64,000 bases of DNA from a virus, in the IMG/VR virus record IMGVR_UViG_3300036985_009306, positions 96,001-160,000 of that record; one strand, given 5' to 3'. The notes under the pieces were generated by a model, which had not been told where the DNA came from, did not search any database, and saw only the letters and a program-made list of their open reading frames with translations. Position 1 is the first letter of the stretch. Each line of letters begins with the position of its first letter. This document shows, piece by piece, positions 38,625 to 62,273 of this stretch. The position numbers and the translations under genes were made by a program.

Positions 38625-39095
38625 ATGCTTAGAGATACACAATCAAAGTTTTTAAATGATATAAGTATTTCAAAAAGAGGTATTGTAAAAGTTGCTTCTT
38701 CACAAGTTCCGAGAGGAAAAGAAGCAACAACTAAACATGAAGTCAAGAAAGTTTTAAAGACTTTTGAAAAAAGTCCTGATGTGACAAAGGATACATTAAA
38801 TAAATATCAACAAAGAGTGGAATTAGATCCAAGTCCAAAAAATGTTGCTAAAGATTTCTTTAATGATCTTGGTGAAGCAAGAAAACATAAAAAACAAATG
38901 CATTTAGTAACTGCTATGTCTTTGAGACAAGCAGGTATCTTTAAGATAGCAGGTAGAAATGTATATGAGGATTTAGAGACAGGTGATTTTTGGAAAATGT
39001 CTGAAGACAAGAAACATGTTTTACGTATGTTCAAAGAAAATAATGGTATTGCTGTAAATTTAAAAGATAAAAAACATGTCGTCAATTGCCATTAA
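38625..39095 (+). CDS. Hypothetical protein whose last codons (VNCH*) come from the IscB element left end
   Basis: AAGGAG SD; GTCAATTGCCATTAA begins in frame at 39081. Confidence 0.6.
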   Translation: MLRDTQSKFLNDISISKRGIVKVASSQVPRGKEATTKHEVKKVLKTFEKSPDVTKDTLNKYQQRVELDPSPKNVAKDFFNDLGEARKHKKQMHLVTAMSLRQAGIFKIAGRNVYEDLETGDFWKMSEDKKHVLRMFKENNGIAVNLKDKKHVVNCH

Positions 39096-39310
39096 TGGTC
39101 TAAGCCGTGAGGTTTAGTGCAAGAGTTGATTAGAGGGCATGAAAATGCAGAAGTTTAAAGCAGAGTTAAAGAACGTACCAAAGAGTGCTCCACAAGCTCT
39201 TTGCTCTACAAGTCCATCTTTAAACAAAGACCAAAGTCTTAGTGAGATGGACAAAGTACTGGCTTTAAACAACCTCGAAGTGGATCCACTCCAACATAGA
39301 GGAGGACAGA
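39081..39310 (+). ncRNA. omegaRNA scaffold (3' boundary approximate)
   Basis: GTCAAT paired with GTTGAT; hairpins CTAAGCC/GGTTTAG and AAAGAG/CTCTTT; directly upstream of the PLMP domain. Confidence 0.7.
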
Positions 39311-40505
39311 AACTCTCTGTCACTATCTATGTATTTAACATACATGGCCAACCTCTAATGCCATGTTCACCAAGAAAAGCTAGAGTTTTATTAAAGAGAG
39401 GAGAAGCAAAAGTCTTAAAAACAAATCCATTCTTTGTCATTCAACTTACTAAAGAAACTAGTAATCATGTACAAGAGTGCTCTTTAGGAATAGACTCTGG
39501 TTACAAGCATATAGGTTTTTCTGTAGTTAGTGACAAGAAAGAAATTGTTTGTGGTGAGTTAGAACTTGATCAAAAAACTTCTGAAAGATTAATTAAACGA
39601 ACAGGATATCGTAGAAATAGAAGAAATAGATTGTGGTATAGAAAGCCAAGATTTAGTAATAGAAAAAAAGATAAAGGATGGTTGCCGCCTTCAACTTTAA
39701 GAAGATTCAACACTCATATCTCTCTTATCAACAAACTCAAATCTTATCTACCAATCAAAGATATCTCTATAGAAGTAGGAAATTTTGATATTCAGAAGAT
39801 AGAGAATCCAGATATTAAGGGAATACAATATCAACAGGGAAGTTTGTATGAATATCAGAATATGAGAAGTTTTTTAATGGATAGAGAACATGGCAAGTGT
39901 CAACTATGTGGAAAAGAATTTAGCAAAGGAAATGACTCACACATCCATCATATTATTCCCAGAGATGATGGAGGGACAGATAGAGAAAAGAATTTAGCTT
40001 TGTTGCATAAAAGTTGTCATAAAAAACTTCACAAACAAAAATTATTTGATAAATTAAAAAAGAACAAGCAGTATAAAGATTCAATATTTATGAATATTAT
40101 TAGATGGAGGTTTAGAGAAATATTTAGAGAATGTAGGTTAGTGTATGGGAATGAGACATTTGTAAAGAGAAATGAGTTAAGATTAGAGAAGAGACATTGT
40201 AATGATGCTTTTGTAATAGCAAGTGGTACAAATCAAATTAAGACAAATCCTATGTTTTTAAAACAGAAACATAAAAATAATAGAGTTTTGCAAGTTAATA
40301 GAAAAGGTTTTAGACCTTCTATCAGAAGAAAAAGATATTCTATTCAACCCTATGATATAGTATTTATAAATAACAAGAAATATATTGCAAAAGGGTGTCA
40401 TTGTTATGGTAAAAGTATTATTTGTAATAATAGAATAAAAACTTTGGATTGTAGTATTAAAAAAGTTGAAAAAGTTTTCTATACAAATTCAATTTTTCAA
40501 AAAAT
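39081..40505 (+). mobile_element. Non-autonomous IS200/IS605-family IscB (OMEGA) element
   Basis: GTCAAT...GTTGATTAGA omegaRNA-type 5' end, intact iscB, no tnpA; removing 39081-40505 restores an open C-terminus for the flanking gene. Confidence 0.8.
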
Positions 40506-40509
40506 ATAA
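39139..40509 (+). CDS. iscB: IscB RNA-guided endonuclease (PLMP, split RuvC, bridge helix, HNH)
   Basis: GQPLMPCSPRKAR; LGIDSGYKHIG; RRNRRNRLWYRKPRF; IEVGNFD; CQLCG...HIHHIIPRDDGGTD...NLALLHKSCH; HCNDAFVIA. Confidence 0.92.
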   Translation: MKMQKFKAELKNVPKSAPQALCSTSPSLNKDQSLSEMDKVLALNNLEVDPLQHRGGQKLSVTIYVFNIHGQPLMPCSPRKARVLLKRGEAKVLKTNPFFVIQLTKETSNHVQECSLGIDSGYKHIGFSVVSDKKEIVCGELELDQKTSERLIKRTGYRRNRRNRLWYRKPRFSNRKKDKGWLPPSTLRRFNTHISLINKLKSYLPIKDISIEVGNFDIQKIENPDIKGIQYQQGSLYEYQNMRSFLMDREHGKCQLCGKEFSKGNDSHIHHIIPRDDGGTDREKNLALLHKSCHKKLHKQKLFDKLKKNKQYKDSIFMNIIRWRFREIFRECRLVYGNETFVKRNELRLEKRHCNDAFVIASGTNQIKTNPMFLKQKHKNNRVLQVNRKGFRPSIRRKRYSIQPYDIVFINNKKYIAKGCHCYGKSIICNNRIKTLDCSIKKVEKVFYTNSIFQKI

Positions 40510-54432: not shown

Positions 54433-54505
54433 AGACCCATAGCTCGTTGGTTCAGAGGCCTTCTTTACAAGTAGAATGTCGGGAGTTCGACTCTCTCTGG
54501 GTCTA
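54433..54505 (+). tRNA. tRNA-Val(TAC), imperfect anticodon stem
   Basis: AGACCCA/TGGGTCT; TTTACAA loop; GGGAG-TTCGACT-CTCTC. Confidence 0.6.
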
Positions 54506-54742: not shown

Positions 54743-54828
54743 GCCCAAATGGTGGAACGCTAGACACGCTGCGCTTAGAACGCAGTATCCGAAAGGGTGT
54801 GGGAGTTGAAATCTCTCTTTGGGCACCA
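54743..54828 (+). tRNA. tRNA-Leu(TAG)
   Basis: CTGCG-CTTAGAA-CGCAG; variable arm; encoded CCA. Confidence 0.9.
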
Positions 54829-54844
54829 AAAATTAGGAATAAAC

Positions 54845-55597
54845 ATGACAAAAGAACAAATGTATCAAGACCTTTTGTCTGTTGATACATCAAAACTTGG
54901 TTGGATTTCTAAACTTTCAAAAAAATGGCATATGTCACATACATGTGCAACTAAGAAAGTGTGTAAATATTTTCCAGAAATTATTGAAAATAGTTATAAA
55001 AGAAAGTCAAAAAAGAAATATTGTCCCAAATGTAATTCTTATTTTCATAAATCATTTTTTAATAAACATAAATGCAAAAACTATTTAGAAAAATATAGGA
55101 GAAGCAGAAGAAAACTTCATACAAGAAGATCATTAATCGTTGATAAAGACATTCTTGAAAAATCTGTGAGTAAAGCTGAATCATTTAATCAAGTAATAAT
55201 AGATTTAAAACAACAAAATATTTCTATATCATTTAAAAGACTTTTCAAACTGATAAAATTTTATGAACTTTCTACTAAACATTTTCTTGGAAAAAGTTCG
55301 TTAAAAGCAAGAAAAAAACTTGAAAAAGAAGAATTTATTTTAGAATGTTTAACAAACAATTCAAAACATGCAGCTTATAATATAAAATCTAAGATTTTGC
55401 ATTTTGAAATTTTAGAATATATTTGTAATAGCTGTGGACAAAATTCTGAATGGAATAATAAAAAACTTGTATTACATTTACATCATAAAAATGGTAATGA
55501 CAATGACAATAGATTAGATAATCTAGAATTTCTTTGTCCTAATTGTCATTCACAAACAGAAACATATTGTAGGTCGAAATCAAAAAAATTGAAATAA
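54845..55597 (+). CDS. HNH homing endonuclease within the tRNA array
   Basis: CNSCG...LHLHHKNGNDNDNRLDNLEFLCPNCHSQT. Confidence 0.88.
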   Translation: MTKEQMYQDLLSVDTSKLGWISKLSKKWHMSHTCATKKVCKYFPEIIENSYKRKSKKKYCPKCNSYFHKSFFNKHKCKNYLEKYRRSRRKLHTRRSLIVDKDILEKSVSKAESFNQVIIDLKQQNISISFKRLFKLIKFYELSTKHFLGKSSLKARKKLEKEEFILECLTNNSKHAAYNIKSKILHFEILEYICNSCGQNSEWNNKKLVLHLHHKNGNDNDNRLDNLEFLCPNCHSQTETYCRSKSKKLK

Positions 55598-55688: not shown

Positions 55689-55773
55689 GCCCAAGTGGTG
55701 CAATTGGTACCCACAACGGTCTTAAGAACCGTCGAAAGAAATTTCATTGCCAGTTCAAATCTGGCCTTGGGCA
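55689..55773 (+). tRNA. tRNA-Leu(TAA)
   Basis: ACGGT-CTTAAGA-ACCGT; variable arm. Confidence 0.85.
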
Positions 55774-55774
55774 A

Positions 55775-55786
55775 GTTCTTTGAAAA
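55775..55786 (+). promoter_or_regulatory. boxA-like antitermination site
   Basis: GTTCTTTGAAAA, matching the rrn boxA form seen in Bacillus and many other bacteria. Confidence 0.55.
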
Positions 55787-55788
55787 TT

Positions 55789-55932
55789 AAGTTGTATCCT
55801 TTAACACTTAATGCTTACATTAAATTTTGTGGTTCGACTCCACATTCCCCCAATTATGGGGGAATAGCCAAATGGTAAAGGCAATAGACTATAGATCTAT
55901 CAAAAACAGCATTATCAACTTGGATACAACTT
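55789..55932 (+). ncRNA. Circularly permuted tRNA-like RNA (T arm and acceptor 3' strand precede the acceptor 5' strand, D arm and anticodon arm; anticodon ATA)
   Basis: TGTGG-TTCGACT-CCACA-TTCCCCC-AATTAT-GGGGGAA-TAGCC...GGC-A-ATAGA-CTATAGA-TCTAT enclosed by TAATGCT/AGCATTA and AAGTTGTATCC/GGATACAACTT. Confidence 0.75.
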
Positions 55933-55939
55933 ATTTTAC

Positions 55940-56012
55940 ACTAATGTAGCTCAATTGGTAGAGTAATGGGATCATACCCCAGAGGTTAAGAGTTCGAATC
56001 TCTTCATTAGTA
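55940..56012 (+). tRNA. tRNA-Met(CAT) with initiator-like three G-C anticodon-stem pairs
   Basis: ACTAATG/CATTAGT; GGG-ATCATAC-CCC. Confidence 0.75.
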
Positions 56013-57251: not shown

Positions 57252-57305
57252 CTCTCATTATGAAAAAATATTATACAGTCTACAAAACTAAGCCGCTAAT
57301 TTTCT

Positions 57306-57395
57306 GGGTCAGAGGCAACTATCGGGTGTGTTGCGCAAGACTGTAGATCTTGTCCCGTAGGGTAAACATTGGAGGTTCAACTCCTTCCTGGCCCA
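57306..57395 (+). tRNA. tRNA-Tyr(GTA)
   Basis: CAAGA-CTGTAGA-TCTTG; variable arm; A73. Confidence 0.85.
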
Positions 57396-57412
57396 TTTTG
57401 GAGAAATTTAAA

Positions 57413-58006
57413 ATGTCATCTGTAATAGTTTTGACCAAAACATATGCATATTGGGGAGAGAGATCTCTTGAAGATGCAATTAGATTGTACTTTCGTGGAA
57501 AAGCTGAGATTTTAAAAGCTGATGAAAGTAGATTGATAAAAGCAGGAATTAATAAAAATGGAATTATATTGAAAATGCCTGCACCTTTAATACTTAGATT
57601 GCTTGAATTTACAGGTATTTATCACACAAAAACAAAAATTAAATATTCAAAAGAAGCAGTTTGGAAGAGAGATGATAATTATTGTCAATTTTGGCATAGA
57701 GATGAAAAAGGAAAAAAGTTTAAATATAAATGCTCACAAGATGATAGAACTATAGACCATTTGATTCCTAAAAGTAGAGGTGGAAAACGTAATGACTTTT
57801 TAAATTGTGTGACTGCTTGTAGACATTGTAATGAAAAGATTAAAGGTAACAAAACTCCTTTAGAAGCAGGTCTTATATTAACTAAACTTCCAGAAATACC
57901 AAAGTTTAGACGGGGGGATATGATTATACTGACTTTTTCATTTAATCCTTCAAATAAAGCTCATCAAGCTCTTAGAGAGTTAATCCCTCAATTAATTAAG
58001 CTGTGA
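57413..58006 (+). CDS. HNH endonuclease (McrA-like)
   Basis: KEAVWKRDDNYCQ...TIDHLIPKSRGG...NCVTACRHCN..KGNKTPLEAG. Confidence 0.88.
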   Translation: MSSVIVLTKTYAYWGERSLEDAIRLYFRGKAEILKADESRLIKAGINKNGIILKMPAPLILRLLEFTGIYHTKTKIKYSKEAVWKRDDNYCQFWHRDEKGKKFKYKCSQDDRTIDHLIPKSRGGKRNDFLNCVTACRHCNEKIKGNKTPLEAGLILTKLPEIPKFRRGDMIILTFSFNPSNKAHQALRELIPQLIKL

Positions 58007-61265: not shown

Positions 61266-62273
61266 ATGCTTAGAAAACTAGCTTCAATTCGAAAAGTAAG
61301 AGACATCAAACCAATAAAAGATGCTGATGCAATTGAACTTGCAATTGTTGATGGATGGCAAGTAGTTGTAAAAAAGGGACAATTTAAACTTGATGAACTT
61401 GTAGTCTATGTAGAAATAGACTCATTTTTGCCAGAACGCTCAGAATTCGAGTTTTTAAGAAAAAGCTCACATCGAACAATGGCGGACGGTTCAACAGGAT
61501 TTAGACTTAAAACTGTTCGTTTGAGAGGACAACTTAGTCAAGGTTTGATTCTTCCTCTCAATGAAGTCAATCTTTCTAATGTCAATCTGGGTGATGAAGT
61601 TACAGAGCAACTGGGAATTAAAAAGTATGAACCACCTATTCCAGCTTGTCTTGCAGGAGAGATGAGAGGAGCTGTTCCAGGAGAAATTCATAAAAGTGAT
61701 CAAGAAAGAATTCACAATTTATTAAACTATTGGACAATCTATAAAGATTTAGAATTTGAAGAAACAGAGAAGCTCAATGGTGCTAGTATGACTGTTTATC
61801 ACAATCAGGGAGATACCGGAGTTTGTGGCCATAAATGGAATATGAAGGAAACTAAGGACAACACCCTTTGGAAGGTCTCTAGAAGGCTCGAATTAACAGA
61901 GAGATTAACTAAATTAGGATTGAATCTAGCACTTCAAGGTGAGATCATTGGAGAAGGTATTCAATCTAATTGGTACAAAATAATTGGACAAACTTTTAAA
62001 ATCTATGATATCTGGGATATTGACAATCAGTACTATTTAACAAACAAAGAACGATTAGATATCATTCAAAAACTTGGATTTGATCTTTCTATTCACGTAC
62101 CTATTCTAAATGCTCATATGAAGATTTTTGATATAATTAAAGATGTTAATGAATTTTTAGAATATTCAACAGGAATTTCAAAATTAGCCAATGTGCAACG
62201 AGAGGGTCTTGTTTATAAATCAACAGAAAGAGTTGGACCTCAAACTATTTCTTTTAAAGTATTAAAAGAGTGA
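61266..62273 (+). CDS. ATP-dependent RNA ligase (DRB0094/Rnl2-like family)
   Basis: RKLASIRKV..IKPI.DADAIE...GWQVVVKKG...EIDSFLP; TEKLNGAS; LQGEIIGEGIQ; REGLVYK; ISFK. Confidence 0.9.
   Translation: MLRKLASIRKVRDIKPIKDADAIELAIVDGWQVVVKKGQFKLDELVVYVEIDSFLPERSEFEFLRKSSHRTMADGSTGFRLKTVRLRGQLSQGLILPLNEVNLSNVNLGDEVTEQLGIKKYEPPIPACLAGEMRGAVPGEIHKSDQERIHNLLNYWTIYKDLEFEETEKLNGASMTVYHNQGDTGVCGHKWNMKETKDNTLWKVSRRLELTERLTKLGLNLALQGEIIGEGIQSNWYKIIGQTFKIYDIWDIDNQYYLTNKERLDIIQKLGFDLSIHVPILNAHMKIFDIIKDVNEFLEYSTGISKLANVQREGLVYKSTERVGPQTISFKVLKE

What the first reader, a model, noticed from the sequence alone, without database searches (positions are those of the whole stretch)
55789..55932. Circularly permuted tRNA-Tyr-like gene with a closed acceptor stem
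Seen: the 3' half (T arm, TTCCCCC, A73) lies upstream of the 5' half (GGGGGAA, D arm, anticodon arm), joined by AATTAT; the break is at the variable arm, which extends into 7-bp and 11-bp outer stems. The anticodon arm AGA-CTATAGA-TCT mirrors the array's tRNA-Tyr (AGA-CTGTAGA-TCT) with G34 changed to A. Established: permuted tRNA genes are known from some algae and archaea; bacterial YrlA Y RNAs carry a permuted tRNA-like module. I see no Ro60 gene in the window and no GNCGAA-type Ro-binding motif, and there is no G3-U70, so tmRNA is unlikely. Inference: either a permuted tRNA matured by cutting and ligation (an RNA ligase is encoded at 61266) or an uncleaved tRNA decoy for anticodon nucleases.
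Basis: partly seen in the sequence, partly recalled or inferred. Interest (0 to 1): 0.85.

Follow-up and report, generated by a model that had tools for sequence, protein, structure and literature searches.

The report
Phage Y-RNA-like permuted tRNA mimic
The flagged stretch is a real, conserved small-RNA gene shaped like a tRNA with its halves swapped and its acceptor end sealed; its relatives in other phages sit beside Ro60-type proteins, which this phage lacks, so it is most likely an orphan Y-RNA-like tRNA mimic and not a working tyrosine tRNA.

Summary
Window 55789-55932 (+) folds as an 11-bp outer stem, a 7-bp inner stem, a T arm, a 7-bp acceptor stem closed by AAUUAU, a D arm and an anticodon arm (AUA). 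Fold z = -6.8.

It is not a one-off. One pattern scan found 50 metagenome loci with the same core. A covariance model built from the window alone recovers them. All six helices covary: 94% of cells are paired against 64% when shuffled, and 36 of 38 pairs show compensatory changes.

Nearest relatives keep the stems, acceptor, D arm and two handle motifs (YACAW, ACUYG) but not the anticodon loop (AUAGAA, 6 nt; AUGCAAA). "tRNA-Tyr" is therefore not a family trait.

In 14 of 55 family loci a Ro60-type gene lies in the fetched flanks, either canonical TROVE+vWA or a divergent clade, often abutting the RNA. None was found in 119 control loci. Conversely, the family model finds such RNAs just upstream of Ro60 in phage contigs (0 hits in 80 controls).

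Rfam YrlA scores 17 bits (threshold 69). This 97%-complete phage has no Ro60-type gene.

Closing loops are enriched for N73-CC(A) and end in A-U/C before G1, which suggests RNase P opening as shown for M. smegmatis YrlA.

Verdict: a new variant of the YrlA/Y-RNA kind. This scan has already noted similar RNAs on other DNA.

The parts
55789..55799 (+). Outer (terminal) stem, 5' strand, 11 nt
   Evidence: Pairs with 55922-55932. All 11 pairs show compensatory changes in homologues, 92.9% of cells paired.
55809..55815 (+). Inner stem, 5' strand, 7 nt
   Evidence: Pairs with 55908-55914. 7 of 7 pairs have changes on both sides.
55816..55827 (+). 5' junction carrying the handle motif UACAU (55816-55820)
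   Evidence: YACAW lies in this position in 23 of 26 distinct family sequences, against 15% in shuffles.
55828..55844 (+). T arm (5-bp stem, 7-nt loop UUCGACU)
   Evidence: 99.4% of cells paired, 4 of 5 pairs covary. The stem abuts the acceptor stem with no spacer.
55845..55851 (+). Acceptor stem, 3' strand (UUCCCCC)
   Evidence: Pairs with 55858-55864. Other family copies carry other complementary 7-mers (GGGCGAG, GGACGAG, GCCGGAA, GGGGAGA, GGAAAUA).
55852..55857 (+). Loop sealing the acceptor stem (A73 + AUUAU). Predicted RNase P cut between 55857 and 55858.
   Evidence: Family loops: N73 is A or G in 44 of 50; N73-CC in 19 of 50; N73-CCA in 10 of 50; the last two nt are AU or AC in 38 of 50. 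Precedent: M. smegmatis YrlA (PMC4201824). Cleavage itself is inferred.
55858..55864 (+). Acceptor stem, 5' strand (GGGGGAA)
55865..55883 (+). U8 A9, class-II-type D arm (3-bp stem, 10-nt loop with GG), A26
   Evidence: D arm conserved in the family.
55884..55900 (+). Anticodon-like arm (5 bp, loop CUAUAGA)
   Evidence: The stem covaries (5 of 5 pairs), but loop sequence and length are not conserved.
55901..55921 (+). 3' junction (CAAAAAC), inner stem 3' strand (55908-55914), and internal loop
55918..55922 (+). Handle motif ACUUG, spanning the end of the internal loop and the first base of the outer stem's 3' strand
   Evidence: ACUYG lies in this position in 23 of 26 distinct family sequences, against 4% in shuffles.
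55922..55932 (+). Outer (terminal) stem, 3' strand

Best explanation
The element is a ~144-nt non-coding RNA gene that belongs to a widespread family not captured by any Rfam model, found mainly in phage tRNA arrays.

SHOWN: it has two modules.
- A complete class-II-tRNA-like body, made of a T arm, a 7-bp acceptor stem sealed by a short loop, a D arm and an anticodon-like hairpin.
- A 'handle', made of the two closing stems plus the conserved motifs YACAW and ACUYG. It occupies the place of the long variable arm.

SHOWN: homologues of this RNA lie next to genes for Ro60-type ring proteins, either canonical TROVE+vWA or a divergent clade. This is the defining genomic context of Y RNAs.

INFERRED: it is transcribed with the tRNA array and released by the tRNA-processing enzymes that cut its neighbours. 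The handle then docks a Ro60-type protein while the tRNA-like body serves as the effector or bait module, as in YrlA. Because this 97%-complete phage encodes no Ro60-type protein, the partner would have to be host-encoded or a protein of another family.

INFERRED, at about even odds: RNase P cuts the sealing loop 5' of G1 (55858) and the 3' side is trimmed to A73 and given CCA. That would leave a nicked two-piece RNA of about 64+3 nt and 75 nt held together by the handle, as demonstrated for M. smegmatis YrlA.
For: Structure and family:
- Fold z = -6.8.
- 50 metagenome loci share the T-arm/closed-acceptor core.
- The single-sequence model R1 finds 29 full-length homologues at E < 1e-7.
- Covariation: 94.3% of cells paired against 63.7% shuffled and at most 52% when partners are slid; 36 of 38 pairs compensatory; covariation score 0.65 against at most 0.12.
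- Handle motifs are present in 22-23 of 26 sequences.

Ro60 link:
- Clustering the flanking ORFs gives one ~530-600-aa family in 10 loci and another in 4.
- The second family is canonical Ro60: Pfam TROVE + vWA_Ro60 and PDB Ro60/Rsr at E 1e-33 to 1e-50.
- The first family is a divergent relative: PDB TROVE proteins at 1.6e-8 and Ro60 at 3.7e-6, plus reciprocal HMM hits between the two families.
- 119 random viral loci give no significant hit.
- Gene and RNA often abut: 37 nt apart in L175, 3 nt in L149.

Reverse test:
- Family model R2 finds full-length matches on the coding strand within ~1 kb upstream of Ro60 in phage contigs chosen only for encoding Ro60.
- It gives 0 matches in 80 control loci.

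Loop processing:
- N73-CC(A) enrichment and A-U/C before G1.
- One copy (L133 488-670) has a 35-nt hairpin in place of the loop.
- Experimental precedent in PMC4201824.
Against: - No Ro60-type gene in this genome by Pfam TROVE, vWA_Ro60, DUF7788, phrog_850 or either locus-derived profile. A 100%-complete 402-kb phage with two family RNAs lacks one as well. Roughly half of the longer family loci show none nearby.
- The published Ro60-binding motif GNCGAAN0-1G is absent, and Rfam YrlA scores only 17 bits.
- Binding, transcription and cleavage are all untested.
- The alignments used for covariation were fitted to the model, and most members were collected with a pattern that fixed the acceptor sequence.
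- Some closing loops are only 4-5 nt long, which may be too tight for RNase P.
Confidence: 0.6

Rival explanations
1. Ro60-independent tRNA mimic. The sealed tRNA-like body acts on its own as a decoy or sponge for proteins that recognise the tRNA elbow, acceptor or anticodon loop. Candidates are host tRNA-cleaving defence nucleases, RNase P, the CCA-adding enzyme and modification enzymes. The handle would only stabilise the RNA.
For: This phage and a complete 402-kb phage carry the RNA without any Ro60-type gene. In the window's subgroup the anticodon-like loops keep U33 and a 7-nt loop while the triplet varies (AUA, GCA, CUU, CCU, GCU, CAA, UAA, GAA, CAU). The element sits in a phage tRNA array, and an RNA ligase gene lies nearby.
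Against: The handle motifs are as conserved as the tRNA-like body. Homologues are tightly linked to Ro60-type genes. The closest relative has a 6-nt anticodon loop, and many members have no such hairpin at all.
Confidence: 0.2
2. Two-piece functional tRNA. RNase P opens the loop and CCA is added. The nicked molecule, held together by the handle acting as an oversized variable arm, is then aminoacylated (class-II-type identity with A73) and used in translation or as an amino-acid donor.
For: The 7+5-bp acceptor/T minihelix is preserved everywhere. N73 is A or G, and CC(A) is enriched in the loops. The D arm is of class-II type. In two related loci (L137 and L172) the same handle encloses a normal-order tRNA that ARAGORN calls, and it ends in G-CCA. 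M. smegmatis YrlA gains CCA in vivo.
Against: The anticodon loop is not conserved even among nearest relatives, with loops of 6 nt, 8 nt or none. A34-U35-A36 is not a normal bacterial anticodon. Long single-stranded linkers of 12 and 7 nt join the body to the handle. No charging data exist.
Confidence: 0.1
3. True permuted tRNA-Tyr gene whose transcript is cut and religated, for example by the RNA ligase at 61266, into a standard tRNA.
For: The permuted order of the halves. An RNA ligase (PHA02142 OB fold + RNA_ligase) lies 5.3 kb downstream. The anticodon arm resembles that of the array's tRNA-Tyr candidate.
Against: No bulge-helix-bulge junction and no splicing endonuclease context. The termini pair into an 18-bp handle with conserved motifs instead of a removable linker. 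The anticodon is not conserved. No recurrent ligase appears among the neighbours of family loci.
Confidence: 0.03
4. Non-functional debris of a tandem tRNA duplication.
For: Duplication followed by loss of the outer halves is the standard route to permuted genes. The array contains homing endonucleases.
Against: Compensatory changes occur in all six helices across dozens of unrelated contigs. Unpaired motifs are conserved. Fold z = -6.8.
Confidence: 0.02

Closest known systems
YrlA (Y RNA-like A; Rfam RF02553; Chen et al. 2014, PMC4201824), especially the M. smegmatis form
   Same: Closing stem formed by the 5' and 3' ends. The order is T arm, acceptor-like stem closed by a loop, then D arm. 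tRNA elbow nucleotides are present. Homologues are encoded next to Ro60-type genes in bacteria and phages. The M. smegmatis RNA (~147 nt, 7-bp acceptor stem) is cut by RNase P in the closing loop and gains CCA.
   Different: Scores 17 bits against a gathering score of 69. No GNCGAAN0-1G motif. It carries its own anticodon-like arm, so the closing stem sits at the variable-arm position (five-way junction) and not at the anticodon-stem position (four-way junction). It has different handle motifs (YACAW, ACUYG). It lies inside a tRNA array. There is no Ro60 gene in this genome.
Two-piece (circularly permuted) tmRNA genes of alpha-proteobacteria, cyanobacteria and some beta-proteobacteria
   Same: The gene order is T arm, acceptor 3' strand, intervening segment, acceptor 5' strand. 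Maturation is by excision of the intervening segment, leaving two base-paired pieces.
   Different: G3-C70 instead of G3-U70. No tag reading frame and no pseudoknots. ARAGORN and Rfam tmRNA models do not match.
Circularly permuted tRNA genes of Cyanidioschyzon merolae and some archaea
   Same: The 3' half is encoded upstream of the 5' half.
   Different: Those mature through a circular intermediate made by the splicing endonuclease and a ligase, and they yield decoding tRNAs with conserved anticodons. Here the anticodon loop is free to vary or vanish, and the termini form a conserved handle.
Phage and jumbo-phage TROVE/Ro60 proteins with a tRNA-like partner (Iyer et al. 2021, PMC7824862)
   Same: Family members lie beside such genes inside phage tRNA arrays.
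   Different: The paper notes the proteins. The partner RNAs found here are not reached by the Rfam YrlA model, and the window's phage has the RNA alone.

Membership tests
YrlA (Rfam RF02553) | Reaches the curated gathering score of the covariance model (69 bits) | tested here: not met
   17.0-17.1 bits, E 0.24-0.53. Other family members score 26-36 bits. No hit at gathering in 34 family or Ro60 loci.
YrlA (Rfam RF02553) | T arm, closed acceptor-like stem and D arm, in that order, enclosed by a stem formed by the RNA's ends | tested here: met
YrlA (Rfam RF02553) | The closing stem takes the place of the anticodon stem (no separate anticodon arm) | tested here: not met
   A separate 5-bp/7-nt anticodon-like arm lies at 55884-55900, and the closing stem sits at the variable-arm position. 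Some other family members do have the YrlA topology.
YrlA (Rfam RF02553) | GNCGAAN0-1G Ro60-binding motif on the 5' strand (PMC4201824) | tested here: not met
   Absent from 55789-55827.
Y RNAs in the broad sense (Ro60 partner RNAs) | Encoded next to a Ro60/TROVE gene | tested here: not met
   No Ro60-type gene in the 192-kb genome. For homologues the feature is met: 14 of 55 loci against 0 of 119 controls, and the reverse test agrees.
Y RNAs in the broad sense (Ro60 partner RNAs) | Bound by Ro60 through the terminal stem | not testable with these tools
   Needs pull-down or gel-shift experiments.
tmRNA (one- or two-piece) | G3-U70 alanine identity pair and a tag reading frame | tested here: not met
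   G3-C70. No tmRNA call by ARAGORN or Rfam.
Permuted decoding tRNA genes | Conserved 7-nt anticodon loop with a usable anticodon | tested here: not met
   Loops are CUAUAGA here, AUAGAA in L298 and AUGCAAA in L141; elsewhere they are 5-8 nt or absent.
Permuted decoding tRNA genes | Processing to a normal-order tRNA through a circular or ligated intermediate | not testable with these tools

The most novel reading that the evidence does not exclude
The sealed acceptor end is a storage form. RNase P opens it and CCA is added. The result is a two-piece, class-II-like tRNA clamped by the handle, charged by an anticodon-independent synthetase (Leu/Ser/Tyr type). It then acts as a phage-controlled amino-acid donor or translational agent, and the handle lets a Ro60-type protein gate its release. 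This would be the first split tRNA-like system in bacteria or phages.
Probability: 0.08. Interest if true: 0.85.

Novelty: new variant of a known kind. Interest (0 to 1): 0.55.

Why it matters
Y RNAs that mimic tRNA are known from bacteria and a few phages, but their effector partners and purpose remain unclear.

This element belongs to a large subfamily that the Rfam YrlA model does not reach. The subfamily keeps a complete cloverleaf, with the ends brought out through the variable arm. It is common in the tRNA arrays of large phages. In other phages and bacteria it is linked to canonical Ro60 and to a divergent Ro60-like clade.

Finding the RNA without the protein in nearly complete phage genomes raises a testable question. 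Either phages use such RNAs to engage or disarm the host's Ro60 machinery, or the tRNA-like body has a job of its own.

The loop statistics also make RNase P opening and CCA addition a general, checkable prediction for this class.

Tried and rejected
- **INPHARED blastn.** The element with its flanks found only a neighbouring tRNA.
- **Relatives through neighbouring proteins.** The RNA ligase gave one distant locus and the 258-aa ORF gave none.
- **Hairpin-only pattern.** It returned unspecific hairpins. I reused those loci as random controls.
- **MAFFT alignments.** They mis-registered the outer stem.
- **Bacterial and archaeal genomes.** The core pattern hit only 4 contigs among one genome for each of 185,579 species, so this is essentially a phage or metagenome element.
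- **Whole metagenome contigs.** They could not be searched.
- **Thioredoxin next to the RNA.** A small ORF family beside the RNA in four loci, with a homologue in this phage, is a thioredoxin, a common phage gene that I judge coincidental.
- **CCA correlation.** Whether CCA is encoded in the closing loop tracks only weakly with whether the neighbouring tRNAs encode CCA. I do not count it as evidence.
- **DUF7873 lead from earlier scan notes.** I had no accession for it. A Pfam scan of 65 ORFs of 170-340 aa from the whole genome showed it nowhere among the 25 strongest of 44 families. A weak match cannot be excluded.
- **PADLOC.** It has no model matching the Ro60-type proteins.
- **Minus strand.** It folds about as well. 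I rejected it because the T-loop and D-loop motifs, the array orientation and the G-U pairs in homologues all fit the + strand only.

Full report
**1. What is there**

The window is bases 96001-160000 of a 192-kb IMG/VR phage record with 31% G+C, estimated 97% complete. The flagged stretch lies in a + strand tRNA array, between tRNA-Leu(UAA) at 55689-55773 and tRNA-Met at 55940-56012.

- an 11-bp outer stem (55789-99 / 55922-32);
- a 7-bp inner stem (55809-15 / 55908-14);
- a T arm (55828-44);
- a 7-bp acceptor stem whose 3' strand (55845-51) comes before its 5' strand (55858-64), the two joined by AAUUAU;
- U8 A9 and a class-II-type D arm (55867-82);
- a 5-bp/7-nt anticodon arm (55884-55900) with A34 U35 A36.

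The topology is that of a class-II tRNA opened in the loop of its long variable arm and closed at its acceptor end. ARAGORN does not call it. Rfam tRNA matches only the two halves separately, below threshold.

**2. It is a member of a large, conserved RNA family**

- One pattern was used for the metagenome scan: T loop, 4 nt, UUCCCCC, 4-9 nt, GGGGGAA. It returned 50 metagenome loci.
- The same pattern returned only 4 contigs among one genome for each of 185,579 bacterial and archaeal species.
- Nearly all hits fold the same way. A long closing helix surrounds the T arm, the sealed acceptor stem, the D arm and usually one more hairpin. Most lie in phage-type tRNA arrays.
- A covariance model built from the window sequence alone (R1) recovers 29 full-length matches at E < 1e-7. 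These include copies the pattern could not have found, because their acceptor stems differ while staying complementary within each copy (GGGCGAG, GGACGAG, GCCGGAA, GGGGAGA, GGAAAUA).
- On 36 distinct sequences, 94.3% of cells form standard pairs, against 63.7% after shuffling and at most 52% when partners are slid. 36 of 38 pairs have changes on both sides. The covariation score is 0.65, against at most 0.12.
- Caveat: the alignment was fitted to the model, and the acceptor sequence was fixed by the collecting pattern for most members. The two closing stems, T stem, D stem and anticodon stem were not fixed, and all of them covary.
- Two unpaired motifs are also conserved. YACAW follows the inner stem in 23 of 26 sequences (15% in shuffles). 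ACUYG runs into the 3' strand of the outer stem in 23 of 26 (4% in shuffles).

I call the closing stems plus these two motifs the handle.

**3. The anticodon is not the point**

The nearest relatives are L298 copy 1 (from a viral contig) and L141.
- L298 copy 1 scores 123 bits with the family model. It has the same acceptor stem and the same AAUUAU loop, an identical D arm, and a fully compensated outer stem.
- L141 scores 99 bits with R1.
- Their anticodon-like loops are AUAGAA (6 nt) and AUGCAAA, against CUAUAGA here.

Across the family this hairpin has loops of 5-8 nt or is missing. The likeness to the array's tRNA-Tyr candidate is real in sequence but is not a family property, and "tRNA-Tyr-like" should be dropped.

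One observation stays open. In the window's subgroup, nine copies keep a 7-nt loop with U33 while the triplet varies freely (AUA, GCA, CUU, CCU, GCU, CAA, UAA, GAA, CAU). This suggests either recent exchange with real tRNAs or some constraint on the shape of the loop.

**4. Link to Ro60-type proteins**

Earlier notes of this scan suggested looking for partner proteins, so I clustered all ORFs in the flanks of the family loci.

Two clusters of ~530-600-aa proteins stand out, in 10 and 4 loci.
- The 4-locus cluster is canonical Ro60. It matches Pfam TROVE and vWA_Ro60, PDB Ro60/Rsr and TROVE proteins at E 6e-33 to 3e-50, and phrog_850.
- The 10-locus cluster is a divergent relative. Its profile hits two solved TROVE proteins at 1.6e-8 and Ro60 at 3.7e-6 over ~240 residues. 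It has the DxSGSM and GGT vWA motifs. The two clusters hit each other with HMMs, down to 5e-17.
- In 119 random viral loci (1.08 Mb) neither profile gives a significant hit.
- Gene and RNA are often immediate neighbours on one strand: 37 nt apart in L175, 3 nt in L149, and tandem RNAs right behind the gene in L124 and L128.

The reverse test is independent of the acceptor pattern.
- I fetched 80 viral loci chosen only because they encode a Ro60 relative.
- In these, the family model R2 finds full-length matches on the coding strand, mostly within 1 kb upstream of the gene.
- 80 control loci give none.
- None of those RNAs reaches the Rfam YrlA threshold.

By eye (not a formal test):
- RNAs beside canonical Ro60 mostly carry GUUACUUCG near the 5' end.
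- RNAs beside the divergent clade carry YACAW and ACUYG, as the window's RNA does.
- L158 is an exception.

**5. This phage has the RNA but not the protein**

Every search of the genome for a Ro60-type gene came back empty.
- Six-frame searches with Pfam TROVE, vWA_Ro60, DUF7788 and phrog_850, and with both locus-derived profiles, found nothing.
- An unfiltered hmmsearch of all 603 open frames of at least 60 aa gave a best E of 0.05.
- The method can find these genes: a Myxococcaceae MAG that carries two close homologues of the RNA has three genes of the divergent clade at E about 1e-103.
- A 402-kb phage record rated 100% complete also has two family RNAs and no Ro60-type gene.
- Only one copy of the RNA exists in this genome.

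The window's RNA is therefore an orphan. Its partner would be host-encoded, or of an unrelated family, or absent.

**6. The sealed end looks like a tRNA end waiting to be opened**

Among 50 distinct closing loops:
- the first base (N73) is A in 27 and G in 17;
- N73-CC occurs in 19 (about 3 expected) and N73-CCA in 10 (under 1 expected);
- the last two bases before G1 are AU in 25 and AC in 13.

A pyrimidine at -1 fits the U(-1) preference of bacterial RNase P, which I state from general knowledge and did not test. One copy replaces the loop with a 35-nt hairpin. This would be expected if the connector is simply removed.

The 7-bp acceptor stem stacked directly on a 5-bp T stem is invariant. 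Chen et al. showed that M. smegmatis YrlA, the one YrlA with a 7-bp acceptor stem, is cut by RNase P in this loop and gains CCA in vivo, with both halves staying bound to Rsr (PMC4201824).

For the window this predicts a cut between 55857 and 55858, giving products of about 64+3 and 75 nt. Against it, some loops are only 4-5 nt long. I put this step at about even odds.

**7. Verdict**

Best explanation (0.6): a Y-RNA-like, YrlA-type tRNA mimic of a subfamily that Rfam does not capture. The handle would be the docking module for a Ro60-type protein and the tRNA-like body the effector module. In this phage it is present without the protein.

Rivals:
- a Ro60-independent decoy or sponge (0.2);
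- a chargeable two-piece tRNA (0.1);
- a cut-and-ligated tRNA-Tyr (0.03);
- debris (0.02).

It fails four of five testable YrlA features: model score, GNCGAA motif, closing stem at the anticodon position, and an adjacent Ro60 gene. I therefore do not file it as YrlA. It works like one by architecture and by the company its relatives keep.

Similar permuted, acceptor-closed RNAs have already been noted many times by this scan on other DNA. One pair, interleaved with Leu tRNAs, resembles the L298 locus found here. Published work covers YrlA beside Ro60 in bacteria and phages (PMC4201824) and TROVE proteins in some jumbo phages (PMC7824862). In the searches I ran I found no description of this five-way-junction form, of its handle motifs, or of orphan copies in tRNA arrays.

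Noticed in passing
window 39081-40509: A HEARO RNA (98 bits, full length) lies directly in front of, and overlaps, a 456-aa RRXRR + HNH protein. This is an IscB-type RNA-guided nuclease module inside a phage genome.
   Followed up: no
window 54797-55597 and 57350-58006: Two HNH homing-endonuclease genes are inserted within the tRNA array (phrog_10822 at 6.6e-38; Pfam HNH).
   Followed up: partly
window 57305-57396: ARAGORN's tRNA-Tyr(GUA) has an oversized D loop and is not found by the Rfam tRNA model at gathering. The HNH ORF's putative start overlaps it. Conversely, Rfam calls a tRNA at 54433-54505 that ARAGORN misses.
   Followed up: no
window 55775-55786; also L141, L133, L137: The motif GTTCTTTGA(A/C)A lies just 5' of the outer stem here and in several relatives' flanks. 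Another first-reader note calls it boxA-like. It may be a spacer or processing signal shared by these arrays.
   Followed up: no
L172 6527-6664 (-) and L137 3897-4034 (-): The same handle (outer stem, GCUUACAUUA, GACUCG) encloses a normal-order tRNA that ARAGORN calls, ending in G-CCA. The handle is therefore a separable module that can carry either a permuted or a standard tRNA body.
   Followed up: partly
L133 488-670 (+): A family copy whose acceptor stem (GCCGGAA) is closed by a 35-nt hairpin instead of a short loop. This resembles the intervening segment of two-piece tmRNA genes.
   Followed up: no
L138 3767-4930 (-): A full-length EF-Tu gene (three EF-Tu domains, E 2.9e-52) lies 186 nt upstream of a family RNA in a 74-kb metagenome contig carrying a tRNA array.
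   Followed up: no
L124, L128, L134, L151; L133, L137, L172: Tandem arrays of two to five family RNAs with few or no ordinary tRNAs. Within an array the acceptor stems differ between copies but pair within each copy.
   Followed up: partly
G006 (Myxococcaceae MAG holding L175 and L176): Three genes of the divergent Ro60-like clade sit on three contigs of one bacterial MAG (E about 1e-103 to 1e-91). At least two close homologues of the window's RNA are present, so the clade also occurs in cellular genomes or their prophages.
   Followed up: partly
L156 1810-2398: A ROOL RNA (313 bits) lies about 110 nt upstream of a family RNA and tRNAs in a 35-kb contig.
   Followed up: no
G000, outside the window (not located): Among the 170-340-aa ORFs of the phage, one has a strong NYN-domain match (E 2.2e-32), i.e. 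a putative RNase, and two are radical-SAM/SPASM proteins.
   Followed up: no
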